Below, one piece after another: positions 4,101 to 58,904 of a stretch of 64,000 bases of DNA. Made by a program: the position numbers and the translations under genes. Positions within the stretch are counted from its first letter, which is position 1. Each line of letters starts with the position of its first letter. The stretch is taken from positions 2,624,001 to 2,688,000 of the forward strand of contig OY760937.1 in assembly GCA_963664225.1 (NCBI GenBank). The letters run 5' to 3'. Under the pieces are notes generated by a model. It ran no database searches and was not told the origin of the DNA. It worked only from the letters and a program-made list of their open reading frames with translations. Origin of the DNA: Verrucomicrobiia bacterium (GTDB lineage Bacteria; Verrucomicrobiota; Verrucomicrobiia; Limisphaerales; UBA1319).

Positions 4101-7100
4101 TTGAGGTAATCGCAAATCACGGGTTGCTGCTGGCTAGTGAACTGGGATAGAACGACAGTTCCGGCTGCGGGAGCGATTCGGAAACCGGCATGGATTTCGT
4201 TTGCGGTGGTTTCCTGGGTATTGCCGTCGGCCCAGACGAGCAAGAAGGTGTTTCCACCCATCGTCGTCCCGGCTGGAAACGACCATTGGCCGGGGTTGGA
4301 GAAATTGGTGCCCAAGTACAGGCCGGCAAGGCTGACCGCATTTGTGCCGGGGTTGTATAGCTCAATCCATGGTTCGCGGTGGCCCGCGGCGTCCACAGGC
4401 CCAGCCACATTCTCGGGCTGAACTTCATTGATCCACACCGGAGGGAATGCAGGCAGGGAGGCGCGCACGGAGTTGACCACGCCGGGGGTGAACCTGACTG
4501 CGGCATTGGTGGCGGTGCAGGCCCAATTTCCAACGCGCGACCGGTCCCGGGCGGGATCGATCAATTGAAGCGAAGGTCCCTGACCATCGGCGACCACCGG
4601 CCAGGGGGCCGAGTCGTGGTATTCGACCTCATCGACGACAAAATCCGAAGAGGGGTCGGCACCGGGAATCACCAGGCGCAGATGCTCGCCGCCGTGGCTC
4701 AACTGGCCCGTGTAACCGGCGGCCACCGGGATGGACGCGCCATAGGCCGATGCGAATTGCACCGCGTCCTGCGCCAAAACCAGATACCGGCCCGGCTCGA
4801 TCAGCAGGCCGTCCGGGAAGGTGAAGCCCAGGCCGTCAAACCGCCAGCGCGAAAGGTCGAAGGTGGTGGTGGTGGAACGATTATAGAGCTCCACATATTC
4901 CGCGCCCGTGATCACCGGGTGATACATGATTTCGTTGATGACCAGGTTATCCTGCGGCAAATCCGCGACGCCGGTGTAATTGATTGTGAGGCTGGCCGTG
5001 GCGCCTGTGAAGAGAGCGCCGGAACGATCGTAACCACGGACCACCAGGGGGTTGGCCCCCGCCTGCAAGGCGACGCGCGCCGACCAGGCGGTTGCCGTGG
5101 TCCAGGTCAGTGGATAGGCCACTCCATTGATCGTGATCTGTCGAACGTCCAGGGGGGCCAGGCCTGTGATGGTGACCAAACCGGCATTGGTGGAAAAGTT
5201 CTGACCGTTGTTGATCGAGAGTCTGAACCCGACCAGGTTGTTGTTCAGGACCGTCAGCAGGTATTGCCGACGCTGTTCGAGCCGGGTTTTGGCATCCGTG
5301 GTATCGCCGACGGCGATGCCGTTGGCCAGAAGGCCCGCGTAAGTGCCGTCGAGAATGGTGCCCACGGTTTTAGGCAGCATGGGGCCGGTGGCGGCATCCT
5401 GTATGGCCTGCAAATAAATCCGGCGGAAGGACGGTGTGGAATAAATGCGGGTCATGACGGGATCGCTGACATCGAAAACATCCTGGTTGGGATCCTGCAA
5501 CAGGAAGTCGATATCCCAGGGGAGCATGATCCATTTACCGGCGGTCGGCTTGTAGGTGTACATGTTCTTGCCCCGGCGGAAACCGTAGCTGTCCCAGTTG
5601 ACCATGATATGTTCGACGGCGAAGACGCGCATCCACTGGTTGACATCCACCAGGGAATCGAAGTTGCGAACGAACGCGTTGTAATCGACGGTGTTGGCAG
5701 CATCCACCAGATTGAAAACGCTTTGGTAATCGTTGGCCGAACTGTTCACGGCCCGTTTTTTCCAGTGCCACCGATAGCGGGCGGTTTTTTTGACACCGCC
5801 GGTGGTGGTGAAGTTTTCCATGGTGGCCGCGGTGTCCCCGTTGTCGCGGGCGAATCCGCTGCCCGCATCGTCGAACTCGAAACCATCGTCCAATTTATAG
5901 AGGTCCCCGTTATTATCCTTGGGAGCGACTTCGTCGATCACATCGCCGCCGGGTTGGAGGCAGTCCTCGTAGATCGTGCCGCGGCGGTTGCCATTGACGA
6001 AAAGATTGATGTAGCGGCGGTAACACCCGTGGGTACCCAATTGCTCCGCCAGCCAGAAGGCGATGTGCTCGAGCTGTCCGGAGACATCGACTTCGAATTT
6101 TGGCCAATCGAGGGTAAACCCGGTCGTGTTCAGGCAGGGATTATCCTCGGGGAATTCAAAGACGTAACCACAGGCGCCGCCAATCGGACCGGAATAACCT
6201 GGGGAAATGAAGGGGCTGCCGCCGTAGAGGGAGCCGACATTATAAATCACGCGGCTGTCGCCATAGACAAAGGTGGCGTCGATGGGCGCGTTATTGAGTT
6301 TTTCACGGTTGGTCCAGAGTTGAACGGCTTTTTGGGTCAGCCACAAATGGTAATTGCCCAAGTTACCGATGGGCTTGGGTTCCGCGAAGCGCACGAGGCA
6401 CTCACGCGCGGGAGCTCCGGCGGGGAAGACGGATTGGAGCGGTGTGGCGGCGGCATCGGTGGCCTGGATGTAAAAGGCGTCGAGCAGGGTGCTGGATTGC
6501 ACAGGAATGACGGCGCTGTAATAGCCCGCCCCGTTGTAAGCCATATTCACGATGGTGTAATTGGTGGCGGGGTCCACACGGTATTTGAGGACCAGGCTGG
6601 CCAGCCCATCGGGGTCGGACACGCGGGCCCGGACGGTGACGTTCTGGCCGAGAGTGGGCAGCACGGGGCTGTGGGAGACATCGAAAATGGCGGGGCCGGA
6701 ATTGGGCGCGGCGCAGGAGTTGCGCGCTCCGGGGGTTCCGGGATTGGGGGGAACCACGAGACTGCCGGAGGCTTCGAGCCAGTTGCCACGCAAACGCAGC
6801 AGCACCTCGGGCCAGCCTTTGAGCCAGCGCACTTTGGCGCGGAGGGTGGCGGTGTCGCCGGGATTGAGTCCGGTCTGAAGGGCGACCCGGATGCGGTTGG
6901 CGCCGGGATCGCCGCGACCTTCGGCGCGAACATGCAGGCATCCGCTGTTGTTGACGCCGCCGGTGGGTTGCCATGTTGTGGCGCCATGGTTGCCCTGGGC
7001 AACCCAGCCTGCCATGCCGGAAGTGAACGAGGGATTGGCAACCAGATTGACGCCCTGTTTGAGGACCTCGACATCGTCCACGAGGCATTCCCCGGCATCC

Positions 7101-9754
7101 TGAAGAAGAACCTGAAGCTGGGGACCGTAGGCATTGACACCGAGATCGAGCACGCCGGTCCATTCCACGGTGGTCCAGGCGCTTTTGGCTGTTTCATCGC
7201 TCGCGGCCCAATTTACGCCGCGCTGGCGATCGGCGCGCGGGTCGATCAATTCGAGGCTGCTTCCGCCGCCATTGGCCCACTCCGGCCAGGCCCCGCCTTT
7301 TTCGAAATTGACTTCGTCCACCACGACATCGATCCAGTTGGTGGTGACCACCGCGCTGGCGTTGGTGGAAAGAACCGGTTCCGGACGCGCCAGGGCAATG
7401 TGGCGGCCTTTGGCCAGGGAACCCTGAAAATCGCCAAAGGTGATCGCCGGGGTAAGGTTGGGGTAGTTGGTCAGGAAATGGGTGACGTTGCGGCAGACCA
7501 CGAAATATCCGCCCGCAGGGATCGCGCTGCCGGCCGGGAAGGTGTATTTGAGGCCATCCGCAAAGGTCCAACCGCTCAAATCGACTGCGGTCTGGCCCTG
7601 GTTGTAAAGCTCCACATACTGGTCGTTGTCGTCCTGCGTCACGGGCTTATACATGATCTCATTGATCACGATGGGCTGGAACAGGCGGTCGGCATTATTA
7701 CTTCCGGGCGTCGGGGCGGCCAGGGCGCGAAACTCCGGCGCACCGTCGGGTTGCCGTCCCATGGAAATCCCCAGCGCCTGCGGCCCGAACCGTTCGGCCT
7801 GCAGAACCCGCGTTCCGGTCGGGTTGATAAAGTATATGGTCTCGCCGGAGGAACTGAGGCCAAAACCCAACTGCGCTTCGCTGAAGGTAAGAAAGCCCAG
7901 GGCGGGAATCACCGTTCCCGCAGGAAGGACGCATTTATTCGTGGCCGGATTATCGGTCAGGACACAGCCGGCAATATCCACCGCCTGGGTGGAATAATTA
8001 TAAAGCTCGATGAAATCGGTCTGGCTGGCGGTGGTATGGGCGAGAAATTCGTTGATGAGCACCGTGCGATAAATGGGATCGGCGGCAGGATCGGCTACTC
8101 CCGGCGAACCACCGACATTCTCACTGGCCGCCCAGGCCATGGGATTGCCCTCACCGTAGCTGGGCCGGGCCAGGACAAGAGAGTGCCCCGCCCCATCCGC
8201 CGAGGCCGGGAACGGCGGCTGGCTGGTGTATGAGGCATCGTAAATGAGATCGCCATTGGGTTTTACCAGGCGGACCTTGCCCGACGCGTTGGAGAGGTTG
8301 TTGGTGAATCCGCCCAGCACATTGGCGATGCCATAAACGGCCTTGATGTCGGCTGGAACCGGCGCCACGACGAGGAACGCGCGTTTGGCGAGGATGGTGT
8401 TTGTGGGGAAGGTGTAATTGATGTCGCCCGTGATCTGCCAGCCGCCGATGTCCTCGCTCCAATCGAAGGTGTTGAAGATTTCGATGTATTCGAGGTTGCG
8501 GGCATCGGCGCGCGCGGCGGGATGATACATGATCTCTGAAACGACCACGCCCCAGCGGCGATTGGAGGGCCCCAACGGTTCCGAGTTCCGGGTGACCAGA
8601 CTGATGGGCAGCGGGACGACGGATTGTTGAAAGGTCGCTTTGGATCCGGCGGCAATGGTGTTGGGCGAGGACGCGCGGTCGCGGATTCCGCTGACGGTCA
8701 GGGTATAAAGAAGGCCGCTCGCGATGGGCGTGGTCTGGAGAACCACCGAAGAGGTGTCGCCGGCGAATTGGGCGCTTACCACGCCGGCCCCATTATCCAG
8801 GACATAATGCGAAGCATCCAGAGCGGTGACGGGATCGACCGGTTCGGTGAACACCACGGTGACCGTGGTGCTTCCGCCCGGGATGGAAATAGCGCTGATG
8901 GCCGGCGGAGTGGCATCCGGCAACACGGAAAGCACCGCTTCACTGCTGTTGGTAAAACCCTGGGCGTTGGAGACAACACAACTGAATCGGCGGCCATTGT
9001 CCGCCATGGTGACCGGTCCAAAGGTCAGGGTGCTGTTGGTGGCTCCGGGAAAGATTGTGCCATTCGTGCTCCATTGATAAACGGCGGCAAAGCCCTGGCT
9101 GACCTGGAGACTGAAACTGGCCAGCCCCCCTTCCGCGACCTTGACGTCCTGGGGTTGGGTCGTGATCTGGGGTGCGCCAAGGCCATACACCAGAAGCCTG
9201 GAGGCGGGAATGGGTTCTTCCATGGTGCCATCAGGCAATTGCCAGCGCACCGCCAGGTAATCATCGCCGCCGCCCTCCTTCATCAGGGCCTCGATATAAT
9301 ACTTCTTTCCGGCTGTGAGCGTCACAGGTGCGGATTGCTGGTTGGCCTCGACAAACCAGGAGCGCGATGGCGTCCAGCCATTAACCCAGGCGATTGCGCT
9401 TCGGGTGGCCGGGGTGGCGTCCGTGCCCAAATACAGACCGGAGGCGTCGTCGCTCGAAATCCAGAAAACATAATTGCCGGTGGTGGGCGGGATGATCAGG
9501 GCGCGCATGCGCTGTCCGTAGGCTTCCGCGATATTGGCCGGCGCCTCGAAATAGTCGGAGACCACGTTCTGGCTGGAGGGGGAATTTGGAAAGGCGGGAT
9601 TGTTGGTCAGATCGGCCAACGTGCCGCCATCGATGCCCTCATAGACCTCCCGCAACAGGCCGTTCATGGGGGTCTGGGCGCTGGCTGTCTGGGAGCCGAC
9701 CAGCAAGGTGGTGGCACAGGCAATGGAACTGAGAATTGATTGAATGACTCGCAT
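1103..9754 (-). CDS. 2883-aa secreted multidomain protein: PA14, Ig-like, 6 lamin-tail domains, CBM-like domains, CotH kinase-like domain, 6 cadherin/He_PIG repeats, C-terminal sorting-like domain
   Basis: Signal peptide ending ASA|Q; PA14 motif YVFWISSDDASGL; LTD starts (SEIMYHP, INEFLAH, INEIMYKP, INEIMYHP, INEVQPEN, INEWMASN); CotH motifs YKLDD, NWDSY, PWDIDF; repeats beginning NxxPVL with DPVTGVFSWTP; ends RFYRVTRLP. Confidence 0.9.
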   Translation of the reverse strand: MRVIQSILSSIACATTLLVGSQTASAQTPMNGLLREVYEGIDGGTLADLTNNPAFPNSPSSQNVVSDYFEAPANIAEAYGQRMRALIIPPTTGNYVFWISSDDASGLYLGTDATPATRSAIAWVNGWTPSRSWFVEANQQSAPVTLTAGKKYYIEALMKEGGGDDYLAVRWQLPDGTMEEPIPASRLLVYGLGAPQITTQPQDVKVAEGGLASFSLQVSQGFAAVYQWSTNGTIFPGATNSTLTFGPVTMADNGRRFSCVVSNAQGFTNSSEAVLSVLPDATPPAISAISIPGGSTTVTVVFTEPVDPVTALDASHYVLDNGAGVVSAQFAGDTSSVVLQTTPIASGLLYTLTVSGIRDRASSPNTIAAGSKATFQQSVVPLPISLVTRNSEPLGPSNRRWGVVVSEIMYHPAARADARNLEYIEIFNTFDWSEDIGGWQITGDINYTFPTNTILAKRAFLVVAPVPADIKAVYGIANVLGGFTNNLSNASGKVRLVKPNGDLIYDASYTSQPPFPASADGAGHSLVLARPSYGEGNPMAWAASENVGGSPGVADPAADPIYRTVLINEFLAHTTASQTDFIELYNYSTQAVDIAGCVLTDNPATNKCVLPAGTVIPALGFLTFSEAQLGFGLSSSGETIYFINPTGTRVLQAERFGPQALGISMGRQPDGAPEFRALAAPTPGSNNADRLFQPIVINEIMYKPVTQDDNDQYVELYNQGQTAVDLSGWTFADGLKYTFPAGSAIPAGGYFVVCRNVTHFLTNYPNLTPAITFGDFQGSLAKGRHIALARPEPVLSTNASAVVTTNWIDVVVDEVNFEKGGAWPEWANGGGSSLELIDPRADRQRGVNWAASDETAKSAWTTVEWTGVLDLGVNAYGPQLQVLLQDAGECLVDDVEVLKQGVNLVANPSFTSGMAGWVAQGNHGATTWQPTGGVNNSGCLHVRAEGRGDPGANRIRVALQTGLNPGDTATLRAKVRWLKGWPEVLLRLRGNWLEASGSLVVPPNPGTPGARNSCAAPNSGPAIFDVSHSPVLPTLGQNVTVRARVSDPDGLASLVLKYRVDPATNYTIVNMAYNGAGYYSAVIPVQSSTLLDAFYIQATDAAATPLQSVFPAGAPARECLVRFAEPKPIGNLGNYHLWLTQKAVQLWTNREKLNNAPIDATFVYGDSRVIYNVGSLYGGSPFISPGYSGPIGGACGYVFEFPEDNPCLNTTGFTLDWPKFEVDVSGQLEHIAFWLAEQLGTHGCYRRYINLFVNGNRRGTIYEDCLQPGGDVIDEVAPKDNNGDLYKLDDGFEFDDAGSGFARDNGDTAATMENFTTTGGVKKTARYRWHWKKRAVNSSANDYQSVFNLVDAANTVDYNAFVRNFDSLVDVNQWMRVFAVEHIMVNWDSYGFRRGKNMYTYKPTAGKWIMLPWDIDFLLQDPNQDVFDVSDPVMTRIYSTPSFRRIYLQAIQDAATGPMLPKTVGTILDGTYAGLLANGIAVGDTTDAKTRLEQRRQYLLTVLNNNLVGFRLSINNGQNFSTNAGLVTITGLAPLDVRQITINGVAYPLTWTTATAWSARVALQAGANPLVVRGYDRSGALFTGATASLTINYTGVADLPQDNLVINEIMYHPVITGAEYVELYNRSTTTTFDLSRWRFDGLGFTFPDGLLIEPGRYLVLAQDAVQFASAYGASIPVAAGYTGQLSHGGEHLRLVIPGADPSSDFVVDEVEYHDSAPWPVVADGQGPSLQLIDPARDRSRVGNWACTATNAAVRFTPGVVNSVRASLPAFPPVWINEVQPENVAGPVDAAGHREPWIELYNPGTNAVSLAGLYLGTNFSNPGQWSFPAGTTMGGNTFLLVWADGNTQETTANEIHAGFRIAPAAGTVVLSQFTSQQQPVICDYLNYRTVGAGRSYGDYPDGQPFSHQGFQFPTPGATNNPAFQPIQVFINEWMASNTRTLADPANNPLTSNPYDDWFELYNAGSEIVDLGGYTLTDTPTNTTQFVIPTGTTIAAGDFLLVWADNDANQNSPTNRAIHTNFKLSQSGESIGLFDPNGGLVDMVVFEPQTNDVSQGRWPDGAAEPFFFMENPTPDAPNRVSSSNRPPVLTVLSNAVVNELESLKFTATASDLDTNQTLTFSLGSAPVGAMIDPVTGVFSWTPSELQGPGVYSISVRATDDGAPPLTAQKRVTVTVNEVNTPPVLPSIVDQTISEGQTLSLNLAATDADRPAQTLTYSLDAKPPGASLDAVTGAFSWTPSEIQGPGAYDITVRVTDNGAPAMSDVRTFHVIVNEVNTAPRIQPSADLSVMEGETLSFQVVVTDDDLPAQGLTFGLDAGAPAAMRIDSSTGLLTWTPAASDIPSTNTITVRVADNGQPPLSASQVFRVIASKLNHAPVLAPIADQYMDEITILRLVVSATDADPGQTLAYSLDGGSPAGMAIDPVTGVLRWIPNEIQGPYTNTVTVRVADNGLPPRSDARTFLVVVREVNTAPVLDSIPDQSLSRGQALNLDVTASDADVPANKLQYELVSGAPAGMTLDATTGALHWTPAPDQIPGTNTILVRVTDNGSPALSDQRAFTVIVNDLPAWTYFTYTGTGSSSVLYIYLTAPGELYLDDLQIVSGSEAGVGANLLVNGDFESDLTGPWTVSPNLIDSSIVTNVAHSGHSSLHVVDSVGGTTRGSSIFQTMVPGLTTGAPYTLSFWCLPGTNAASLVLRLSGFGINFDQSIVPVAGTNQPPVISDYSGLQEIVRGEPLEYPIVATDPDPGQILRFSLAPGAPAGAVVDPVSGIFTWTPPVSLPAGLYPAVIRVIDNGLPVRSATTTLSFLIVDPPVELRILSIAARPGQNVALSWASQAGGRYQVQAADQLTPGAWTDLGSVVTATNASAACTDLPPAGQARFYRVTRLP

Positions 9755-9810
9755 TTCTTTCCTTAAAACGATAAATAAAATTCAAATAAGACGCTGTGGT
9801 TTTCCACAAT

Positions 9811-17962: not shown

Positions 17963-18930
17963 TCAAGGAGCCTGCCGAGCCTGGTAAAACCGGTTGCCAG
18001 CGGCTGTGTTCGTGTCGGTGAACGAGACGCTGCCGGTCAAATTGGTGATCGTTTCCAGGCTTGTCCAATTGGCCGACGGAAGCGCGCTATTGGTGCAGGC
18101 CAGAATCTCCCATCGCCCGGGCTCGCTTTCGAGAGTGAATCGAAACTGGCCGTTGGTCACGCCCCAGGCCGTCAAGACGGGAGCGGGCACGGTTTCCAAC
18201 CGGACGTTATCCAGGTCCCAATAGCCGCCATTGAGATCGAAACCCACTGTGGAGGCCAGTTCAATGCCGATGTTCTGACCGGCCCACGCGTCGCCCGTCC
18301 GAACGAAGGGAGTCCGGGCTTGAAAATCGACAAAATGAGTGTTGTTGGGAAAGAGCTCCGCAGTGTTTGTGATCGTCGTTGCGGCAACCGTTACTTTGTT
18401 ATTCCCGGCGTCGCGATAATAAAGGCTGATCTGGAGCGGGACACCATTGGACATTCCGCCGCCACCGCCAATGAGTCCGACCTTTAGCGCGTAGGCATTG
18501 CCGACTTCAAAGCGCGCGTTGAATTCGTGCGTTGGAACGGAATTGGTTCCCGAAACCGAGTTGTAATCCTGAAAAATGGAAACGTCCGGCTGCGCAAACA
18601 AAAAGGCCCCCTGCCTGCCCTCAATGTTGTCGATGTGGGTGGGGCTGCCGTTGGTGGTATTCAGGAACTGACCGAGAAACTGGTCCCACGGAAACCCGCC
18701 GCCACCCATATACCACGCGGGTTCGGGGGCCTTCTGCCATGCGTCCATGGCTGGATCCGCGTAGGACGTTTCCGGGGATTCGAACGATCCATTGGGCACA
18801 ACAACGGTTCCCGCTCGAACGGAACCCGTGACTGCCGCCAGGGCGATGAGCCCGGCCAGAAGGGTGAACAAAGACCGGTTGGAGCCGCGCGCATCGGCGG
18901 CCAGATTGCTTTTGAATTCAGGTGTCTGCA
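17963..18930 (-). CDS. Secreted CBM-like jelly-roll protein with C-terminal sorting-like domain (start uncertain, 18930-19006)
   Basis: Signal peptide ending VRA|G; VPNGSFESP...WDLDNVRL frame typical of CBM4/9-like domains; tail ending SFTDTNTAAGNRFYQARQAP. Confidence 0.8.
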
Positions 18931-19133
18931 TTTTATTGAAATGCCTTAACATAATTGAAGTAATAATATGCACAAACGTGCATATCAGGAGGCGTGGCGT
19001 CAACATTCCCGTTTAAAAGGTTTTGCATTTTCGCATTTTTTCATTGGATGAACGAACTGCTGCCGGTCCGTTGCATTGTGGGGCGGGAGGCTTATGTTGA
19101 GAAAGGAAACCCCGAAACGATAAGGAGTCATTT

Positions 19134-51550: not shown

Positions 51551-54439
51551 TCAGTAGTTTGCTCCCGCTTCCATGAACCGGGCCGAACCCCATGCCGCGT
51601 GGTCGCTCGCGTTTCCATCCCCGCCGTTGAGTATCCGCAACGTGACCAGTCGCGCGCCCACGACGCTGACTTGCATGGGATGAACCATGCCCAACCGCAA
51701 GACGGGGCTTTGCGCTTTGAGTTCGCCGTCCACAAGGAGCTGCGCCACCACGCTGCCGCGCCCCGCTGAATCCTCCACGCCCACATCGGCGGCGAAGAGC
51801 GAAAGATTGCGCCCGGCGATATCGAGGGTCACATCCGCCGGAGTTGCATCCCCAAAGGCGTGGGTCCAGATGGCTTTGGGATGCAACTGGCGTCCGATAC
51901 GGACCGTCTGCCCGTGAATGTTATTGTCTCGGCGCACCGCGTTTTCCGCTCCGGCAGTGGCCCTGGCCCAGGGAAGATCGGATGCAAACACAATGCCTTT
52001 GGGAAGCGTTTTGAGCGGTTTTGTGACAACCTTGCCCGGGTTCCCGTTTGACATTCGCAACCCTCCTGCGGACCGCGATTCAACCTTCCAATACCAGGTT
52101 CGTTCCGATGGCAGTCGAAACTCCGTGTTCGTTGCCGCTGTGCATTTCTCAAACGATACACGTTGAAAGTCTGGCTGATCAGAAATCACAACGCGGTAGT
52201 CGCGAGCGAACGCGTTTTCGTTCCAATGGAGCCGCACGGTATTCGTAAAATAATCGGCCTCCACCGAGGCGGGCAGAAGCTTGAACCTGCCGGGTGGAAT
52301 CAAAGCCTTCGGTTTTCCCAGTGAAGCGTCGCGAACATAAACCAAATCGCAGCTAAAACGATTGGTCAGGTGAACGGTCAAACCGTCCGTCATCAGCTCT
52401 GATCCCAGACGCTTGCCCGCGCTGACCGAACCATCTTCGCTCCAAACCCAGTAAAGCTTGTTGGCGGCCAATCCCGCAAGGGGGACCGTCTTTTGCGGCT
52501 CAGGTGAATCGGGCCGAAACACAAAGAACGTTCCGCGCTTGAGGGGTGCGCTCCAGTAGAACAATCCATCCCAATTGGCGCCGGCGGCGCGTGGTAAAAC
52601 ATGATGCACTTTGACGTCCTTGAGCATGGGACGAATCCAGTTCTTGTAGATGCGCGTGGATTGCCGGGCTGAATCGATTTGGTCGTCGCTCCATCCGGCG
52701 GTATCGGTTGGATCGATGTGCCAGGCCCCCATCATTGCGCTGCGCCAGAGGTAATCGCCCGGCTCGTCGCCTTTCACGGGGAAGTAATTGTCGTAGGTAT
52801 AGCATTGAAGAACCAGGGGAGGCAGGGCGAAGGTCGAATCATACATGCTCTGGCGATCCGCGAGGTTGGAGAGCATATCCGTGGTCGCAATCAGGTGTGT
52901 TCGCTGGATGATCCCAAAATCCTTGATGTGCCCTCCGCCGGAGCAATCTTCGATGACCACGTGGGGGTACTTCTTATGCATGGCCTCCTGCACTTCATAA
53001 TAACCAAGCGTCGCCCAGTAGCTTGCATCCACGCCGTAATGGTGCCGGTGCGTTGTCTGCAAACAGCGGTTTACAATCGGATCGCTGTCGTGCTTGAGAT
53101 AGTCCAGATGGTAATCCCGGACGAGTGACTGCGTCTTCTCGATGGCCCACGCCCTGGCTTCCGGCGACCCCAGACACAATTTCGCGCCGTAATGAGGCCC
53201 GGGCGTCCAACCGGCGGGAGTATTGGTGCTGAACCAATCGGGGTGGCCGTTCGGACCCCGCACACTTAACGCGCCGGGTTCTTCCGAAATGCCGCCATTG
53301 CTCCAGGCGCACCAAAGGGCCTGCCGCATGCCGTTTGTATGAACCCATGCCTCTATGGGTTTGATGCCCTGGGGAAAACGGCGTGGATCCCAACGCCAAT
53401 CTCCGCATTCGGGATACCACATGGCGTCGGGCATGAACGCCTCAAAACCGAGTTCGTGACAAAACCGCGCGCTACGCAACACGTCTGCTTCGGTCGCGTT
53501 GGTCATGCCGTAATCGAGATAAAGATTATACGCCAGGATCGGGTCTGGAACGGCCGCAGGCAGCGGTGGGCGCAACTTCTCGATTACAAAGCGGTGAAGG
53601 CTGTAACTGCCCTCCTCCAGATCTCCCGAGTAACATCCGACAAAGGCAGGCGGGATCTTCAGAGTCTCACCCGGCTCGATGTCCGTCTTGAACCCGGGCC
53701 AAAGTCCCGCGGCAATGCTCAAGCCGGCATCTCGTCCCAGGGCCTGCACCCGCCCGAGTCCCGAGAATTCCCAACCGAGGTATAATCCGCGCTTTTCGCC
53801 CTCCTGCACCGCGAGCCATGGCACCGGGCTGGCGCCGTCATCGCAATTATTGGTCAACACCAGGCTTGTCCCGTTGGTCAGAGGTTGGGAAAACGTGCCG
53901 CCCTGCGTCGTGGCAGACGCGCCGCCACGCTTGATCCACCAAAGTTGCGAAGCCGCCCTTGGGCCAATCCCAATCAATGCCAGACTCTCCTGCTGGGAAA
54001 TAGACACGCGCCGGGGCGAAGCGTTTCGAATTTCCACCCAATGCTCAATGGGGCCGCGCCCCGGACGCGCGCGCCAGACCGATTCCAGCACCAGCGATGG
54101 CTCGCGATTCAGGAACTCAACGCGCAAAACGCCCGACTTTTCCAACGCTTTGGAATACTGCCATGCCGCTGGACGATCGCTTCCGTCCACACCGACACGC
54201 TCCAGCAAAGGCAACGGCGATGGGCTCGAAAGCCAGTTTTCACGCGAATGGACATCTTCCAGGCGTTGAACCACGAGCGTGTTGTCGCGCAGGCCCAATT
54301 CAATGACGGTGTCCGAGGTGGAAAGGGTCCAGGTTTGCGCAGCCATCGACGGTCGCGGCGAAACGGCAAACAAAAGCAGGAGAAGGCCGGTCCATCTGCC
54401 GAGCAAACGACGCGGCCGGGAGTTTTGGCCTGGAAACAT
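51551..54439 (-). CDS. GH36-like alpha-galactosidase with C-terminal FN3-like and NPCBM domains (start uncertain)
   Basis: PDAMW, RFPQGIKP, DYLKHD, EDCSGGG, TD; NPCBM tail FAADVGVED...GNASDHAAWGSARF. Confidence 0.82.
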   Translation of the reverse strand: MFPGQNSRPRRLLGRWTGLLLLLFAVSPRPSMAAQTWTLSTSDTVIELGLRDNTLVVQRLEDVHSRENWLSSPSPLPLLERVGVDGSDRPAAWQYSKALEKSGVLRVEFLNREPSLVLESVWRARPGRGPIEHWVEIRNASPRRVSISQQESLALIGIGPRAASQLWWIKRGGASATTQGGTFSQPLTNGTSLVLTNNCDDGASPVPWLAVQEGEKRGLYLGWEFSGLGRVQALGRDAGLSIAAGLWPGFKTDIEPGETLKIPPAFVGCYSGDLEEGSYSLHRFVIEKLRPPLPAAVPDPILAYNLYLDYGMTNATEADVLRSARFCHELGFEAFMPDAMWYPECGDWRWDPRRFPQGIKPIEAWVHTNGMRQALWCAWSNGGISEEPGALSVRGPNGHPDWFSTNTPAGWTPGPHYGAKLCLGSPEARAWAIEKTQSLVRDYHLDYLKHDSDPIVNRCLQTTHRHHYGVDASYWATLGYYEVQEAMHKKYPHVVIEDCSGGGHIKDFGIIQRTHLIATTDMLSNLADRQSMYDSTFALPPLVLQCYTYDNYFPVKGDEPGDYLWRSAMMGAWHIDPTDTAGWSDDQIDSARQSTRIYKNWIRPMLKDVKVHHVLPRAAGANWDGLFYWSAPLKRGTFFVFRPDSPEPQKTVPLAGLAANKLYWVWSEDGSVSAGKRLGSELMTDGLTVHLTNRFSCDLVYVRDASLGKPKALIPPGRFKLLPASVEADYFTNTVRLHWNENAFARDYRVVISDQPDFQRVSFEKCTAATNTEFRLPSERTWYWKVESRSAGGLRMSNGNPGKVVTKPLKTLPKGIVFASDLPWARATAGAENAVRRDNNIHGQTVRIGRQLHPKAIWTHAFGDATPADVTLDIAGRNLSLFAADVGVEDSAGRGSVVAQLLVDGELKAQSPVLRLGMVHPMQVSVVGARLVTLRILNGGDGNASDHAAWGSARFMEAGANY

Positions 54440-54959
54440 GACGGACAAAAAATCGGCGCTATTCATCGGATGTTTCATGACTTGCTTTGTTCTCAATCTC
54501 CATGGTTGCTTCAGCGAAAAACCCTGTTTTCCCTGATCCCGCAGATGACCGCGTCCTTCGGGACATTTCGGGACCGCCATCGATCCTTGCCATAGCCTTT
54601 TGCCATGGACGGAAATTTCAATTGTCTCAATTGCTTCATTGCAGCCAACCGGGGGAATGGGATCGCCCTTATGATGCCTTGATTCGTCCATTGATCAAGC
54701 CGCCATTTTCCGGTTTTTATTAGCAGATGGAGCGCGGAACAAAATCCAAGGCATCGAGCTAAAGCACCCAATCATTCCAGCACAGGGCGCGAAAAGGGTG
54801 GTTTCTTTGCATTGGCCGTAATCCAGGCCCGCACATTGACAATTACGGTTGGACATTCCTCATTTCAGTGCGATTAGTTCTTCATCTGGAAGGTATAAGA
54901 CCTGCGTATGCACGGCAGGGCCGTTTAGTTCGACCAATGAATGAGTAGCTTGATTTGCC

Positions 54960-55517
54960 ATGAAAACGATGAACCGATTATTCCTCAGCGCGGCCGCGGC
55001 TTTTGCCTTGCTCGCCTCCATTTCCACTCAGGCGGCCGTGGACATGTTTCTGGACATGGGCAAAGACATACCCGGGGAATCCACCGATAAAGCGCATCCC
55101 AACACCGTGGATGTCCTGGCCTGGAGCTGGGGAATGTCCAACTCAGGCACGACTCACCTTGGCGGAGGCGCGGGTGCGGGCAAGGCGAGCTTCCAGGACT
55201 TGAGCCTCACGAAATATGTGGACAAGGCCAGTCCCAATCTCATGTTGTACTGCGCCAACGGAAAGCATTTCGCAACCGCCACCTTGATCGTTCGCAAAGC
55301 TGGCGCAGTACCGGTCGAATACATCAAAATCACGATGTCGGAAGTCATGGTAACCAGCGTTTCGACGGGGGGATCCGGCGGGGAGGATCGTCTGACAGAG
55401 AACATCACCTTGAATTTTGCAAAAGTTGATTTCAGTTATGTGCCCGTGGATCCCAAGGGAGGTGCCGGTACGGCCGTCGAGATGAAGTGGGATATCGCGG
55501 CCAACATCGCGCAATGA
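54960..55517 (+). CDS. hcp: Hcp (T6SS tube protein family) with N-terminal Sec signal peptide
   Basis: MKTMNRLFLSAAAAFALLASISTQA|AVDMFL..IPGESTDKAH...VLAWSWGMS...LTKYVDKASPNL...GKH...VRKAG...VSTGGSGGEDRLTENITLNFAKV; closely follows P. aeruginosa Hcp1 motifs. Confidence 0.93.
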   Translation: MKTMNRLFLSAAAAFALLASISTQAAVDMFLDMGKDIPGESTDKAHPNTVDVLAWSWGMSNSGTTHLGGGAGAGKASFQDLSLTKYVDKASPNLMLYCANGKHFATATLIVRKAGAVPVEYIKITMSEVMVTSVSTGGSGGEDRLTENITLNFAKVDFSYVPVDPKGGAGTAVEMKWDIAANIAQ

Positions 55518-55581
55518 TGGCTGGACTCTGTAACTCAGAGCCCGCTTGAGTGCGGTTTGTGTTTTCATTCCTATTGCGCCT

Positions 55582-56397
55582 ATGTCAACATCAAGAACTG
55601 CAATCCTCGCCTTGGGCTTGTTATTGGCCATTGGCCAGAGCGGCTCGCTGCATGCGGCCATCGACATGTTCCTCAAGGTTGGGAACATCAAAGGGGAGTC
55701 CACAGATCCCGCCCACCCGCAGGAAATCAACGTGCTGGCCTGGTCCTGGGGAATGTCCCGTCCCGCTCCTCCCATTCCCGGAGGAGGAACTGCCATCAGC
55801 AAGGTTTCACTGAGCAGCCTGTCACTGACAAAATACGTGGACTCGTCGAGCGCGCCGCTGATGAAATACTGCGCCACTGGAAAAACACTGTCCAACGCGC
55901 AACTGACATTGCGTACGGCGGGCGATCAACCGTTGGAGTTCTGCACCATTACCATGACGAATGTCATGATCGTCGGCATTGCATCCGGCGGTTCGGGCGG
56001 TGAGGATCGCCTGACTGAGAACATCACCCTCGACTTTGAGACGCTCAACGTCATCTACCATCCGGTCGCCAACACCACCCTTGAACCTCGAATCGGTTTC
56101 GATTGGAGCGTCGTAGCGGACACGGGGTTGGCCAGTGTCGTCCCCAATCCCTTGCCCGCTCCGGTTCCCAGCCTGGTCTCAACCCTTTCCCATACCAATG
56201 ACACTCCCTTCGCGCAATTGACCTGGGTGAGCACCGCAGGCGCCATCTACCGGATCTGGGCTGCCGACAGCGTTGAGTCTGGTTATCAGGTTTACGGAGG
56301 AGATATCCCATCCGCAGGAGACGGGACCACTTCCATGACCCTTCCGGCGATCCTGGGACGCAAGTTTTTCAGGATCGAAACGGTCTCTGTTAAATGA
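55582..56397 (+). CDS. hcp: Second signal-peptide Hcp fused to a Pro-rich linker and a C-terminal sorting-like domain
   Basis: MSTSRTAILALGLLLAIGQSGSLHA|AIDMFLKVGNIKGESTD...LAWSWGMS...GGSGGEDRLTENITLDF...PNPLPAPVP...LTWVSTAGAIYRIWAA...RKFFRIE. Confidence 0.9.
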   Translation: MSTSRTAILALGLLLAIGQSGSLHAAIDMFLKVGNIKGESTDPAHPQEINVLAWSWGMSRPAPPIPGGGTAISKVSLSSLSLTKYVDSSSAPLMKYCATGKTLSNAQLTLRTAGDQPLEFCTITMTNVMIVGIASGGSGGEDRLTENITLDFETLNVIYHPVANTTLEPRIGFDWSVVADTGLASVVPNPLPAPVPSLVSTLSHTNDTPFAQLTWVSTAGAIYRIWAADSVESGYQVYGGDIPSAGDGTTSMTLPAILGRKFFRIETVSVK

Positions 56398-56567
56398 GTT
56401 CCCAGTGTGAATGGCCCAATTCCGCCCGCGGTTCCCTGCAGGTGCGGGGGATGTTCTGGTCGGCAGGAAAACTCATATAGCCGACTTGCGGTGACGGCCC
56501 CCACAGTCGCCAAACCCGGGAGGATTATCTTGTTGTCACTTCAATCAGACCTTTTAAATTGACCCAT

Positions 56568-58904
56568 ATGCGTTCGCCACTCTTTCGCCATTCTCGCATC
56601 CCGCATTATGCCGGATGCATTGCCATACCGTTTTTGTTTTTGACTGCCGCCGTTTCCACCTTGCTGGGCGCCCCGGCCGACGCGCAGGACCGGCCTGTGG
56701 ACTATATCCGTCCATTTGTTGGCACCCAGGGTGAGGGAAACACCTACCCCGGCCCTTCGGCCCCTTTTGGGATGGTGCAACTCAGCCCGGATACCGATCG
56801 AGACCTGTGGGAAACGGCTTCCGGTTATGAATACTCGGACACCTCCATCATGGGCTTTACGATGACGCATTTGTCGGGTACGGGCATTCCCGATCTGGGT
56901 GACTTTTTGTTCATTCCGCAGATCGGCGAACCCAAACTGACTTGCGGGACGAAGAAGGATCCGGATGTCGGCTATCGCGCCCGCTATTCGCACGATCAGG
57001 AGTCTGCTTCCGCGGGTTATTACAAGGTCAAACTCCTCAATAACAACGTGACGGTCGAACTGGCCGCGGCGGAGCGGGCGGGCATGATGCGCTTCACCTT
57101 TCCAGAGAGCAATCAGGCCAGCATCATGACGGACCTGCAGCATTTCCTGAGCGGGAATCGCTTTAAACTGATCTGGTCCCACGTTCGCGTCGAAGACCAG
57201 TCCACCGTCACCGGTTTTCATCTGGTCAACGGCTGGGGCAAGGAGCGTTATCTCTATTATGCCGCCCGTTATTCCAGGCCTTTTGACACGTACCGCATCA
57301 TGAGCAATGGCAGCGAAGTCAAATACGACAGCTACAAGACCTACCGCTTTCGCAGCAGGAATGAAGCTGCGGGGACAAATCTCCAATTTCTGGCTGAATA
57401 CAAAACCCGTGCCAATGAGGCCATCACGGTCAAGGTCGCGGTCTCAGCGGTCAGCGCCGCCAACGCGATGAAAAACCTGGACTCCGACATTCCGGAATGG
57501 AACTTCGAGGCCGTGGTTCAAGGCACCCGCGAGAAATGGAATCGCGAGCTGAGCCGGATTGAAATCGAAGGTTCGCCTGCGGACAAGGAAACTTTTTACA
57601 CCAGCATGTATCATCTGTTCCTGGCGCCCAATATTTACCAGGATGTCACAGGCGAGTATCGCGGTCTGGACTCCAATATCCATCAGGCCAGGGGATTCAA
57701 AAACTACGCCGTATTCTCCCTCTGGGATACCTATCGCGCCGCGCATCCGCTCTTCACGCTCATCCAGTCGCAGCGGGATTCAGATATGATCAATTCCCTG
57801 CTGGCTCATTTCGACCAGAGTGTCGATCACCTCCTGCCATTATGGTCGCTCCAGGGCAATGAAACCTGGTGCATGATCGGCTATCACGCAGTGCCGGTGA
57901 TCGTGGACGGCTTTCTCAAAGGCGTGAAGGGTTTCGACAGGGAACGCGCCTACCATGCCATCAAGACCAGCGCCATGAACCCCGACTATGATGGTGTGGC
58001 GGCTTATGCCCAACTCGGCTGGGTTCCCTTCGACAAGGAGAATGAGTCCGTTTCCAAGACGCTGGAATACGCTTATGACGACTATTGCGTCGCCCAAATG
58101 GCCAGGGCCCTGGGCAAAAAGGAGGACTACGCCTATTTCATGAAACGTTCCATGGGATACACGAATCTTTACGATCCCTCGGTGGGTCTCATGCGCGGGA
58201 AAGACTCCCTCGGAAAATGGCGGACTCCCTTTGATCCCCACGGCTACGACGACGCGAGCCGGAACAATGATTTCACGGAAGGCACGAGTTGGCAGTATTC
58301 GTGGTATGTGCCGCAGGATGTTCCCGGAATGATCCAGCTTTTCGGCGGCAAGGATGCATTCATCCAGAAACTGGATAGCCTCTTCACCTATACCAACATC
58401 AACGCCAAAGGACTGGATGACGTTCAGGGACGCATAGGCGAATACTGGCACGGCAACGAACCCAGCCATCATATCATCTATCTTTATAGCTGCGTCGGCC
58501 AGCCCTGGAAAGCCGCCCAGCGCGTGCATGAAGTTCTCAAAACCCAGTATGGCAGCCAGCCCAATTCACTCAGCGGAAACGACGATTGCGGCCAGATGTC
58601 CGCCTGGTATCTCTTCACCGCCATGGGCTTTTATCCTGTTTGCCCGGCCAGCGACCAGTATGTCATTGGCAGTCCTGCATTAAAGAAAGCCGTGATGCAC
58701 CTTTCCAATGGACGGAAATTCACCATGCGGGCGGATGAACTTTCAGAGCAAAATATCTATGTTCAATCCGTGAAGCTGAATGGGAAAACGTGGGACAGCC
58801 CCATGCTGCCATACAACGCGGTGAAAAACGGTGGAACCATTTTGTTCAAGATGGGGCCGCAACCCAACACCTCATGGGGAACAAACGGTTGTTTTGCAAA
58901 ATAA
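56568..58904 (+). CDS. GH92 alpha-mannosidase
   Basis: GNTYPGPSAPFGMVQLSPDT, HLSGTG, FSLWDTYRA, SKTLEYAYDD, FTEG, HGNEPSHH, GNDDCGQMSAWY. Confidence 0.96.
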   Translation: MRSPLFRHSRIPHYAGCIAIPFLFLTAAVSTLLGAPADAQDRPVDYIRPFVGTQGEGNTYPGPSAPFGMVQLSPDTDRDLWETASGYEYSDTSIMGFTMTHLSGTGIPDLGDFLFIPQIGEPKLTCGTKKDPDVGYRARYSHDQESASAGYYKVKLLNNNVTVELAAAERAGMMRFTFPESNQASIMTDLQHFLSGNRFKLIWSHVRVEDQSTVTGFHLVNGWGKERYLYYAARYSRPFDTYRIMSNGSEVKYDSYKTYRFRSRNEAAGTNLQFLAEYKTRANEAITVKVAVSAVSAANAMKNLDSDIPEWNFEAVVQGTREKWNRELSRIEIEGSPADKETFYTSMYHLFLAPNIYQDVTGEYRGLDSNIHQARGFKNYAVFSLWDTYRAAHPLFTLIQSQRDSDMINSLLAHFDQSVDHLLPLWSLQGNETWCMIGYHAVPVIVDGFLKGVKGFDRERAYHAIKTSAMNPDYDGVAAYAQLGWVPFDKENESVSKTLEYAYDDYCVAQMARALGKKEDYAYFMKRSMGYTNLYDPSVGLMRGKDSLGKWRTPFDPHGYDDASRNNDFTEGTSWQYSWYVPQDVPGMIQLFGGKDAFIQKLDSLFTYTNINAKGLDDVQGRIGEYWHGNEPSHHIIYLYSCVGQPWKAAQRVHEVLKTQYGSQPNSLSGNDDCGQMSAWYLFTAMGFYPVCPASDQYVIGSPALKKAVMHLSNGRKFTMRADELSEQNIYVQSVKLNGKTWDSPMLPYNAVKNGGTILFKMGPQPNTSWGTNGCFAK

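What the first reader, a model, noticed from the sequence alone, without database searches (positions are those of the whole stretch)
54960..56397. Orphan pair of Sec-exported Hcp tube proteins: candidate T6SS-independent surface tube/filament system
Seen: two tandem Hcp-family genes, each with a classical signal peptide (TQA|AVDMF, LHA|AIDMF). Cleavage of the first would give AVDMF, the same N-terminus as P. aeruginosa Hcp1 after Met removal. No tssB/C, vgrG, PAAR, clpV or baseplate gene lies in these 64 kb. Known: canonical Hcp has no signal peptide, forms hexameric rings and stacks in the cytoplasm inside the sheath. Inference: Sec export puts these Hcps out of reach of a cytoplasmic sheath, so they appear repurposed. 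Hcp-A alone could be the major subunit of an extracytoplasmic hollow tube or ring, and Hcp-B a minor anchoring or nucleating subunit, analogous to major/minor pilins or curli CsgA/CsgB.
Basis: partly seen in the sequence, partly recalled or inferred. Interest (0 to 1): 0.93.

Follow-up and report, generated by a model that had tools for sequence, protein, structure and literature searches.

The report
Exported Hcp ring-protein gene pair
Two neighbouring genes encode the tube protein of the bacterial type VI "injection needle" behind export signals, in a genome with no needle machinery, and the second carries a tail domain shared by over a hundred exported proteins, so this ring-forming protein seems to have an undescribed job outside the cytoplasm.

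Summary
Window 54960-55517 (Hcp-A, 185 aa) and 55582-56397 (Hcp-B, 271 aa) are true Pfam T6SS_HCP proteins (E 3e-39, 4e-32). Each sits behind a classical Sec signal peptide ending AxA just before the canonical Hcp N-terminus.

The signal peptides are real. Of the 120 best homologues, 33 carry divergent but typical signal peptides and 87 start at the canonical Met.

The 5.78-Mb single-contig genome gave no hit for 9 of 9 T6SS or contractile-tail families.

In 401 sampled genomes of the phylum, all 13 that have Hcp but no TssC carry signal-peptide Hcps. All 17 with both Hcp and TssC have leaderless Hcp beside the T6SS. One of these also has an exported copy.

The conserved unit is a two-gene module: an exported Hcp, then an exported partner (usually Hcp) ending in an uncatalogued Fn3-like "FYR" tail. 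That tail ends at least 116 ORFs in this genome.

My reading is that rings assemble after export and are tethered or targeted through the tailed partner. A tube or filament is possible but unsupported.

Related proteins with six tandem Hcp domains point to the ring as the working unit.

This scan has noted signal-peptide Hcps and the FYR tail before on other DNA. I found no paper describing either.

The parts
54960..55517 (+). Hcp-A gene (185 aa plus stop): Sec signal peptide followed by a complete Hcp domain
   Evidence: ORF. Pfam T6SS_HCP E 3.2e-39, residues 35-160. Closest solved structure is P. aeruginosa Hcp1, 1y12, E 4.9e-58.
54960..55034 (+). Signal peptide of Hcp-A (residues 1-25, MKTMNRLFLSAAAAFALLASISTQA). 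Predicted signal peptidase I cut is after TQA, leaving AVDMF...
   Evidence: Sequence. The same three-part layout occurs in 33 of the 120 best homologues: residue -1 is A in 30 and G in 3, and 32 of 33 have K/R in the n-region.
55582..56397 (+). Hcp-B gene (271 aa plus stop): signal peptide, Hcp domain, Pro-rich linker, FYR tail domain
   Evidence: ORF. The ATG start at 55582 is fixed by homologues P0122 and others. Pfam T6SS_HCP E 3.8e-32, residues 30-157.
55582..55656 (+). Signal peptide of Hcp-B (residues 1-25, MSTSRTAILALGLLLAIGQSGSLHA). Predicted cut is after LHA, leaving AIDMF...
   Evidence: Sequence. Seven of the ten aligned Hcp-B-type sequences carry a full comparable leader; three are N-terminally truncated records.
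55657..56076 (+). Hcp domain of Hcp-B (about residues 26-165)
   Evidence: In the AF2 model, block means of pLDDT in this domain run from 35 to 91, with residues 58-76 below 50.
56077..56172 (+). Low-confidence Pro-rich linker (about residues 166-197, ...VVPNPLPAPVPS...)
   Evidence: AF2 pLDDT is below 50 for residues 164-167 and 172-209. An indel occurs here among homologues.
56173..56394 (+). C-terminal FYR tail domain (about residues 198-271, ending KFFRIETVSVK): a small all-beta Fn3/Ig-like sandwich
   Evidence: An iterative search of the own genome found the domain in 132 ORFs, 116 of them within 10 residues of the C-terminus. AF2 on a 52-sequence alignment gave pLDDT 84 and six strands. 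Foldseek found only weak Fn3/Ig-like matches. There was no Pfam or NCBIfam hit.

Best explanation
This is a self-contained two-gene module for Hcp proteins that work outside the cytoplasm and independently of any type VI secretion system.

Proposed mechanism:
1. Both proteins are made with cleavable Sec signal peptides and exported unfolded. The sequence shows this; export itself is inferred.
2. Signal peptidase I cuts after AxA, leaving AVDMF and AIDMF. This is the N-terminus that leaderless Hcp has after Met removal (inferred).
3. The mature Hcp-A domain is very close to P. aeruginosa Hcp1 (E 4.9e-58 to 1y12; no identity computed) and 68-71% identical to most leaderless 160-aa Hcps listed. 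It then folds and most likely forms the usual hexameric ring in the periplasm or on the cell surface. This follows from family knowledge: Hcp1 rings self-assemble without other T6SS parts. It was not shown here.
4. Hcp-B supplies an Hcp domain joined by a flexible Pro-rich linker to an Fn3-like 'FYR' tail. That tail ends more than a hundred other ORFs of this genome, enriched about two-fold for exported-type N-termini by a crude test. I read Hcp-B as the subunit or partner that tethers or targets the Hcp assembly to the place where all FYR-tailed proteins go, probably the outer cell surface (inferred).

What the ring does there is open.

Sub-odds:
- Exported and T6SS-independent: about 0.85.
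- Ring is the working unit: about 0.6.
- Hcp-B tethers or targets via the tail: about 0.45.
For: Family and signal peptides:
- Both are Hcp-family proteins with signal peptides.
- Among the 120 best homologues of Hcp-A, 87 start MA/MS directly at the first strand. The other 33 have N-extensions. These differ in sequence but keep a K/R n-region (32 of 33), a hydrophobic core (minimum 8-residue hydropathy 1.99, median 2.85) and A/G at -1 (33 of 33).
- The canonical start Met is replaced by A or G in all 33.
- The possible internal starts are not conserved. The V27 position is V in 27 of 33, and the M29 position is M in 29 of 33.

No T6SS:
- 9 of 9 T6SS or contractile-tail families gave 0 hits in the one-contig genome.

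Phylum sample of 401 genomes:
- 30 have a PF05638 hit and 19 have TssC.
- All 13 with Hcp but no TssC have leader-bearing Hcps.
- All 17 with both have leaderless Hcp within about 3 kb of TssC wherever both coordinates were listed on one contig.

The module:
- In 14 leader-Hcp loci, the only gene family shared across more than four loci is the tandem pair itself.
- 12 of the 14 loci have two genes.
- My tail HMM hits the C-terminus of the second gene in 9 of those 12.
- The genome's third exported Hcp is followed by an exported GW-repeat/TSP3 protein with the same tail. The same arrangement is seen at G327:C29 and, with tails judged by eye only, in G004.

Mature domain barely changed:
- Only 3 alignment columns separate the 33 leader-bearing sequences from the 87 leaderless ones.

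Ring as unit:
- Among the 149 best representatives matching Hcp-B, 27 have 3 or more tandem Hcp domains, and 18 of these have exactly six. Pfam confirms 6 stretches in P0126 and P0130.
Against: - No experiment and no signal-peptide predictor was available. Cleavage and location are inferred.
- No RNA data were found, so expression is unknown.
- Ring formation, A-B co-assembly and any role of the tail are untested.
- The tail is a generic Fn3/Ig-like sandwich with no specific structural match. It also occurs internally in 13 of 134 domain hits, so it may be an accessory domain and not an address.
- Exported Hcp is not strictly an alternative to T6SS. Genome G081 has both a T6SS with leaderless Hcp and a leader-bearing Hcp about 98 kb away.
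- The enrichment of signal-peptide-like starts among tail ORFs is only about two-fold by a crude heuristic: 57 of 99 against 541 of 1967.
- The flanking genes (a melibiase/NPCBM hydrolase and a GH92 mannosidase) give no functional hint.
Confidence: 0.6

Rival explanations
1. One reading: exported Hcp-A rings stack into a hollow extracytoplasmic tube or filament, and Hcp-B acts as a minor nucleating or anchoring subunit, as with major and minor pilins or CsgA/CsgB.
For: The two-gene layout (an untailed Hcp plus a tailed Hcp) is conserved. The mature Hcp-A surface is almost unchanged from tube-forming Hcps, with only 3 group-specific columns. Hcp proteins can stack head to tail inside T6SS sheaths (established knowledge, recalled).
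Against: To my knowledge (recalled), Hcp tubes in cells need VgrG/baseplate priming and co-assembly with the sheath. Isolated Hcp1 stays as rings unless engineered. None of those genes is in the genome: 0 hits for 9 of 9 families. The relatives with exactly six fused Hcp domains (18 of 27 multi-domain proteins) fix one ring per chain and point to the ring as the unit. No usher, secretin or nucleator-type gene is conserved next to the pair.
Confidence: 0.15
2. Binding ring, acting as sponge or carrier. A periplasmic or surface-displayed Hcp ring uses its lumen to bind small proteins. It might capture Hcp-borne effectors injected by neighbours' T6SS (a decoy type of defence), or chaperone the cell's own small exported proteins.
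For: Canonical Hcp rings bind small effectors in their lumen (established knowledge, recalled). Exported Hcp-A remains 68-71% identical to most of the leaderless 160-aa Hcps listed, with only 3 group-specific columns, as a mimic would. On the tree, leader-bearing Hcps fall in several places among leaderless ones; starred branches force at least 4 label changes.
Against: There is no direct evidence. No candidate cargo gene is conserved beside the pair. The tree is a FastTree of a 160-residue protein with many long branches, and a few leader labels are wrong (P0124 and the second G257 gene). High similarity could equally reflect a recent origin.
Confidence: 0.15
3. Relic reading: the genes are leftovers of a lost T6SS, and the apparent signal peptides are untranslated or non-functional upstream sequence.
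For: The genome has no T6SS. In-frame GTG (V27) and ATG (M29) codons exist in Hcp-A.
Against: The leader is kept as an open, typical signal peptide in 33 divergent homologues, while its sequence drifts. The canonical Met is replaced in all 33. V27 and M29 are not conserved in all. All 13 genomes with Hcp but no TssC in the sample have leaders. The pairing with a tailed, leader-bearing partner is conserved. The frames are intact and remain 98 to 57% identical across relatives.
Confidence: 0.04

Closest known systems
T6SS inner-tube protein Hcp/TssD, especially P. aeruginosa Hcp1 (PA0085, PDB 1y12; Pfam PF05638)
   Same: Full-length Hcp domain. Hcp-A aligns to 1y12 over residues 24-183 with E 4.9e-58. 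It is 68-71% identical to most leaderless 160-aa Hcps listed. After the predicted cut, the N-terminus is the canonical AVDMF.
   Different: A cleavable Sec signal peptide replaces the start Met. The genome has none of 9 T6SS or contractile-tail families searched. The gene is not next to sheath or baseplate genes, but next to a second exported Hcp with a tail domain. Scores fall below the NCBIfam TIGR03344 cut-off.
Extended Hcps (Hcp with C-terminal toxin domains, 'Hcp-ET'; recalled from the literature, and 'N-terminal HCP1 domains' fused to toxins in PMC3482391, passages seen)
   Same: Hcp-B is an Hcp domain with a C-terminal extension.
   Different: The extension is a Pro-rich linker plus a small Fn3-like tail with no toxin-family hit. 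Hcp-B has a signal peptide, and there is no T6SS to fire it.
T9SS C-terminal sorting domains of Bacteroidota (Por_Secre_tail; accession numbers recalled)
   Same: The FYR tail is a beta-sandwich of about 70 residues. It sits at the very C-terminus of many unrelated large ORFs, which show about two-fold enrichment for exported-type N-termini by a crude test: 116 of 134 domain hits lie within 10 residues of the end.
   Different: No Pfam or NCBIfam T9SS model matched 11 tails tested, even at permissive E. No sorting role is shown. The SprA search was uninformative because the control rang nowhere.
Fibronectin type III-like domains of bacterial extracellular enzymes (for example PDB 3mpc)
   Same: The best fold resemblance of the tail model is TM about 0.5-0.56 to Fn3/Ig-like chains.
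   Different: No match reached E <= 0.001. There is no sequence-family membership.

Membership tests
Hcp/TssD as a structural family (Pfam PF05638) | Full-length match to the T6SS_HCP profile above the gathering score | tested here: met
   134.6 and 111.7 bits against a cut-off of 23.5.
Hcp1 subfamily (NCBIfam TIGR03344) | Score above the curated cut-off of 58.9 bits | tested here: not met
   Hcp-A scores 45.9 bits and Hcp-B 37.6 bits. The genome's third Hcp passes with 117.5 bits.
Hcp/TssD as a working T6SS tube subunit | No signal peptide; made and assembled in the cytoplasm | tested here: not met
   Both proteins carry classical signal peptides that are conserved in homologues.
Hcp/TssD as a working T6SS tube subunit | Sheath, baseplate, spike and membrane-complex genes present in the genome | tested here: not met
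   0 matches for TssB, TssC, TssE/gp25, TssF, TssK, TssM, VgrG, PAAR and phage sheath. The genome is one contig and 96% complete.
Hcp/TssD as a working T6SS tube subunit | Forms hexameric rings that stack into a tube | not testable with these tools
   Needs purified protein or a multimer prediction of six or more chains. Inferred only from the strong match to Hcp1, E 4.9e-58.
Extended Hcp toxins (Hcp-ET) | C-terminal toxin domain | tested here: not met
   The C-terminal 112 residues hit no Pfam or NCBIfam family even at E <= 10. The fold is a small Fn3-like sandwich.
Verrucomicrobial 'FYR' C-terminal tail domain (uncatalogued; named here and in earlier notes of this scan) | Beta-domain of about 65-75 residues with G..Y, L...W and a final [FY][FY]R[VLI] strand, at the very C-terminus of an exported protein | tested here: met
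   The Hcp-B tail seeds a family of 132 ORFs in its own genome, 116 of 134 domain hits within 10 residues of the end. Alignment A2 shows W and R conserved in at least 90% of sequences.
T9SS C-terminal domain | Match to T9SS tail models and presence of T9SS machinery | tested here: inconclusive
   No model hit for 11 tails. The SprA_N search gave 0, but its control rang in no genome.

The most novel reading that the evidence does not exclude
Exported Hcp rings plus FYR-tailed partners form a previously unknown envelope or surface apparatus of PVC-group bacteria, derived from the T6SS tube protein but working without sheath, spike or baseplate. For example, a surface-tethered ring or short tube could capture small proteins, including effectors delivered by neighbours' T6SS. 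The single-chain six-Hcp proteins would be its fused form in related phyla.
Probability: 0.2. Interest if true: 0.9.

Novelty: new variant of a known kind. Interest (0 to 1): 0.72.

Why it matters
Hcp is treated as a marker and working part of the T6SS, and genome annotation calls these genes 'type VI secretion system tube protein'.

Here a near-canonical Hcp has been moved behind a Sec signal peptide in genomes with no T6SS. It is kept in a conserved two-gene module with a tailed partner. This implies a second use of the phage-tail-tube ring outside the cytoplasm, one I found in no paper.

Practical consequences:
- Hcp alone should not be used to infer a T6SS in Verrucomicrobiota and related bacteria.
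- The pair offers a small, tractable handle (two genes, one shared tail) on what the very common FYR tail does.
- Whether Hcp rings can assemble and act on their own becomes directly testable by expression, fractionation and EM.

Tried and rejected
- Complex prediction of mature Hcp-A with the Hcp domain of Hcp-B: no verdict, score 0.25 against a mark of 0.32. It says nothing either way.
- RNA evidence: no RNA holder listed. Five runs from two studies hold the DNA.
- Promoter and terminator scan of 54600-56700: one promoter-like site, at chance level, and no terminator-like site. Co-transcription is undecided.
- Composition: the pair's GC (0.51-0.59) is like its neighbours', so there is no sign of recent import.
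- Conserved neighbours: none beyond the pair, so no candidate partner machinery was found.
- Full-length Hcp-B model: mean pLDDT 60.8. Parts of the Hcp domain are well predicted (best 10-residue block 91, residues 58-76 below 50), and the linker and the relative placement of the tail are unreliable. It was not used for fold search.
- Foldseek of the tail model against the PDB: no match at E <= 0.001.
- Pfam and NCBIfam on the tail of Hcp-B and on 10 other tails: nothing significant.
- A weak NCBIfam hit of the third locus's partner to 'Amuc_1099 family pilus-like system protein' (E 0.0031, 17.1 bits against a cut-off of 50) lies in the TSP3 repeats. I rejected it as membership.
- SprA_N search for a T9SS: uninformative, because the control rang nowhere.
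- Cluster look-up for names and taxa of the six-Hcp proteins: the database was off and the query was not made. Their taxonomy is therefore unknown. The planctomycete-like look of their N-termini is my recollection only.
- Literature: five full-text searches on signal-peptide, exported or T6SS-independent Hcp found nothing on exported Hcp. One search on a verrucomicrobial C-terminal sorting domain and one on PDB code 7fcf also found nothing relevant. Passages of PMC3482391 and PMC2660368 were read and do not mention signal-peptide Hcps. For all other papers I saw only the search listings.
- First tail HMM with strict inclusion: it held only 2 sequences and was replaced.
Full report
OBSERVATION

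Two same-strand ORFs lie at window 54960-55517 (Hcp-A, 185 aa) and 55546/55582-56397 (Hcp-B). Homologues of Hcp-B begin at the position of the ATG at 55582, so I take 271 aa as its length.

Both match Pfam T6SS_HCP over the whole profile: E 3.2e-39 and 3.8e-32, 134.6 and 111.7 bits against a cut-off of 23.5. Both stay under the cut-off of the NCBIfam Hcp1 model TIGR03344: 45.9 and 37.6 bits against 58.9.

The closest solved structure to Hcp-A is P. aeruginosa Hcp1, 1y12, at E 4.9e-58, aligned from query residue 24 to 183.

Each protein begins with a 25-residue segment of the classical Sec type: a short K/R-containing start, an uncharged hydrophobic core, then TQA or LHA. This is followed at once by AVDMF or AIDMF. 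There is no Cys for a lipobox and no twin arginine.

ARE THE SIGNAL PEPTIDES REAL?

The homologue search gave 8000 hits among 8000 candidates scored, with the best 120 listed. Of these 120:
- 87 begin MA or MS directly at the first strand (MAVDMF...).
- 33 carry an N-extension.

The 33 extensions differ widely in sequence but keep the three-part layout:
- K/R in the n-region in 32 of 33.
- Highest 8-residue hydropathy at least 1.99, median 2.85.
- No D/E in the last 22 residues of the extension in 31 of 33.
- A (30) or G (3) at position -1.
- A, L, T, S, V, I or G at position -3.

In all 33 the canonical start Met is replaced by A or G. The two candidate internal starts are not conserved: the V27 position is V in 27 of 33 and the M29 position is M in 29 of 33. 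Some relatives therefore have no alternative start at all.

Of the ten aligned Hcp-B-type proteins, seven carry a full comparable leader; the other three are N-terminally truncated records.

I had no SignalP. This rests on sequence, a hydropathy heuristic and conservation. I consider the relic or untranslated reading very unlikely.

IS THERE A T6SS ELSEWHERE?

The window lies in a one-contig genome of 5,783,426 bases, 96.35% complete.

Nine families each gave 0 matches, while the E. coli control rang each time:
- TssC (PF05943)
- VgrG/Phage_GPD
- gp25/TssE
- Phage_sheath_1
- TssF
- TssB
- PAAR
- TssK
- IcmF/TssM

ClpV, TssA, TssG, TssJ and TssL were not searched.

The genome has three Hcp-family genes: the pair, and a third about 1 Mb away. 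The third (216 aa) also has a signal peptide, then a spacer of about 50 residues, then an Hcp domain that passes TIGR03344 with 117.5 bits.

DISTRIBUTION IN THE PHYLUM

In 401 genomes sampled evenly from the window's phylum, PF05638 hits 30 and TssC hits 19. Named near relatives are Verrucomicrobiota. Cross-tabulated:
- 17 genomes have both.
- 13 have Hcp only.
- 2 have TssC only.

In all 17 with both, the best Hcp frame starts at Met directly before the first strand, with no hydrophobic stretch upstream. It lies within about 3 kb of TssC wherever both coordinates were listed on one contig.

In all 13 without TssC, the Hcp frames carry hydrophobic, leader-like N-extensions. These genomes are G000, G138, G231, G282, G312, G327, G363, G004, G104, G257, G299, G317 and G395.

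The split is not absolute. G081 has a T6SS and also has one leader-bearing Hcp about 98 kb from its TssC. Relatives are not independent, so I give counts and no test.

Among named public genomes reached with Hcp-A, leader-bearing forms were found in four records:
- two Verrucomicrobiota MAGs (L034, L062)
- a Pontiellaceae genome (L043)
- one contig binned as Rubrivivax (L056)

The other 76 loci showed no hydrophobic leader by the same heuristic. They are mostly Pseudomonadota, with some Planctomycetota, Actinomycetota, Acidobacteriota and Chloroflexia records, and nearly all start with the canonical Met.

THE CONSERVED UNIT IS A TWO-GENE MODULE

I compared all ORFs of at least 100 aa in 14 leader-Hcp loci. 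These were the two loci of this genome, L034, L043, L062, L056, and up to 20 kb around the hits in eight sample genomes.

The only family shared by more than four loci is the tandem pair itself. Twelve of the 14 loci have two adjacent members. No secretin, usher, sheath-like or other machinery gene recurs.

The first gene is a short leader-Hcp. The second is longer (271 to 1325 aa) and leader-bearing, and usually contains its own Hcp domain.

THE C-TERMINUS OF HCP-B IS A GENOME-WIDE TAIL DOMAIN

An iterative search with the last 85 residues of Hcp-B against all stop-to-stop frames of its own genome converged on 134 domain hits in 132 ORFs. Of these, 116 lie within 10 residues of the ORF's end, 5 within 11-30, and 13 further in. 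The median carrier length is about 815 aa.

The consensus ends ...RFYRV. In a 52-sequence alignment, a Trp and the Arg are conserved in at least 90% of sequences.

Eleven tails, including Hcp-B's, hit nothing significant in Pfam or NCBIfam.

AF2 on that alignment gives a six-strand all-beta domain with pLDDT 84. Foldseek finds only weak Fn3/Ig-like resemblances: best E 0.029, TM about 0.5-0.56, for example 3mpc.

By a crude start-site heuristic, 57 of 99 tail ORFs of at least 400 aa have a signal-peptide-like start, against 541 of 1967 other long ORFs.

An HMM of this tail hits the C-terminus of the second gene in 9 of the 12 two-gene loci. The other three end in similar-looking strands (IYRL, LVRIF, FLRFEV) by eye only.

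The third Hcp of this genome is followed by an exported 305-aa protein with GW-type repeats, bacterial TSP3 repeats (E 5.2e-05) and the same tail, but no Hcp domain. The same 'Hcp plus TSP3/tail protein' arrangement is seen at G327:C29 and in G004, with the tails there judged by eye.

Both module types therefore couple an exported Hcp to an FYR-tailed exported partner.

HOW MUCH HAS THE HCP DOMAIN CHANGED?

Very little. Most of the leaderless 160-aa Hcps listed are 68-71% identical to Hcp-A over 85% of its length.

Among the 120 best hits, mean identity is 0.69 within the leader group, 0.74 within the leaderless group and 0.62 between them. Only three columns are group-specific: D32 against K, T65 against A, and A99 against C.

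On a FastTree of 181 Hcp domains, Hcp-A sits in an all-leader clade of 33 rows (support 98) next to leaderless sequences. Hcp-B sits in a different leader clade with the Pontiellaceae, L062, L056 and G317 genes. The L034 pair sits among betaproteobacterial Hcps. Well-supported branches force at least 4 changes of the leader label.

Caveats on the tree:
- The protein is short and there are many long branches.
- FastTree was the only method used.
- A few heuristic labels are wrong, for example the N-truncated P0124 and the second gene of G257.

So 'several origins or transfers' is suggested, not shown.

SINGLE-CHAIN SIX-HCP PROTEINS

A full-library search with Hcp-B found 7423 representatives at E <= 0.001, of which 62 were at E <= 1e-30. 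I classified the 149 newly fetched of the best 150:
- 27 have three or more tandem Hcp domains: 18 with exactly six, one with seven, four with five, three with four and one with three. Several of these are visibly truncated records. Pfam confirms 6, 6 and 7 stretches in P0126, P0130 and P0134.
- 16 are single Hcp plus FYR tail.
- 59 are single Hcp with a leader-like start and no tail.
- 42 are leaderless.
- 5 have two Hcp domains.

Six fused domains equal one ring. This is the best hint I have that, in the exported branch of the family, the ring is the working unit and an open-ended tube is not.

Many of the six-Hcp proteins start with an R-rich segment followed by LE.LE.R.LL[AS]. I recall this as typical of planctomycete exported proteins. 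Their taxonomy could not be looked up.

MECHANISM

I commit to the following. Both proteins cross the inner membrane by Sec and are cut by signal peptidase I to the canonical Hcp N-terminus. They fold into Hcp rings outside the cytoplasm. Hcp-B, through its flexible linker and FYR tail, ties or targets the assembly to wherever FYR-tailed proteins reside, most likely the outer surface.

What is shown:
- family membership
- conserved leaders
- absence of T6SS genes
- the conserved pairing
- the shared tail

What is inferred:
- export and cleavage
- ring formation
- A-B association
- the tail's role
- the location

Rivals, with my odds:
- A binding ring that sequesters or carries small proteins, possibly incoming T6SS effectors: 0.15.
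- A non-functional relic: 0.04.

COMPARISON WITH WHAT IS KNOWN

By fold and sequence these are Hcp proteins. By the defining working features of TssD (cytoplasmic, leaderless, with sheath, baseplate and spike) they are not T6SS tube subunits.

They are not Hcp-toxin fusions either, because the extension is a small Fn3-like domain with no toxin hit.

The tail behaves positionally like a T9SS C-terminal domain but matches none of its models.

NOVELTY

Five full-text searches on signal-peptide, exported or T6SS-independent Hcp turned up no description. Passages read in PMC3482391 and PMC2660368 did not either.

This scan has noted the same class before on other DNA. Thirty-four notes in at least 34 genomes hold the words searched. 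The eight shown include Verrucomicrobiota pairs, and one Hcp with 'the shared C-terminal module'. The FYR tail has been noted as an uncatalogued Fn3-like end domain. Those are unchecked AI notes. I re-derived both points here independently. They do not count as support.

I rate this a new variant of a known kind, interest 0.72. A T6SS specialist would be surprised by a near-canonical Hcp1 behind a Sec leader in T6SS-free genomes, kept in a conserved module. The module makes both the autonomous behaviour of Hcp rings and the role of the FYR tail testable.

Noticed in passing
Own genome outside the window: G000:C1:3672152-3673720 (L003:1261-2829): This is a third exported Hcp (216 aa, signal peptide plus a spacer of about 50 residues, passes TIGR03344). 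It is directly followed by an exported 305-aa protein with GW-type repeats, bacterial TSP3 repeats and the FYR tail. It forms a second module type that couples an exported Hcp to a tailed partner. Similar arrangements occur at G327:C29 and in G004.
   Followed up: partly
Proteins P0126-P0137, P0141, P0143, P0147, P0151, P0206, P0243, P0265: These public proteins of 1000-2164 aa have exactly six tandem Hcp domains, that is, single-chain pseudo-hexameric rings. Many have R-rich LE.LE.R.LL-type N-termini. I found no paper on them, and their taxonomy could not be looked up.
   Followed up: partly
window 1106-9781 (-) and 17966-19012 (-): Two further ORFs in the window (2892 aa and 349 aa) end in the same FYR tail domain as Hcp-B. 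Genome-wide, 132 ORFs carry it, and it is absent from Pfam and NCBIfam.
   Followed up: partly
PDB entry 7fcf: This solved entry is labelled 'Fimbrial protein'. It holds two different Hcp-like sequences, five chains of one and one chain of the other, which match Hcp-A at E 6e-19 and 2e-16. It is a possible precedent for a mixed 5:1 Hcp ring. No paper was found by its code.
   Followed up: no
Protein P0155: This public 440-aa representative combines an Hcp domain with Pfam Fusion_gly, a viral fusion glycoprotein family, behind a leader. It looks like an engineered construct and not a natural gene.
   Followed up: no
G081:C8:296127-296678 (L196:1127-1678, -): This is a leader-bearing Hcp of the third-locus type in a genome that also has a complete-looking T6SS with a leaderless Hcp. 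Exported Hcps can therefore coexist with a T6SS.
   Followed up: partly
window 51551-54691 (-) and 56559-58904 (+): The pair is flanked by a melibiase/NPCBM glycoside hydrolase and a GH92 mannosidase. Neither is conserved next to Hcp pairs in other genomes.
   Followed up: yes
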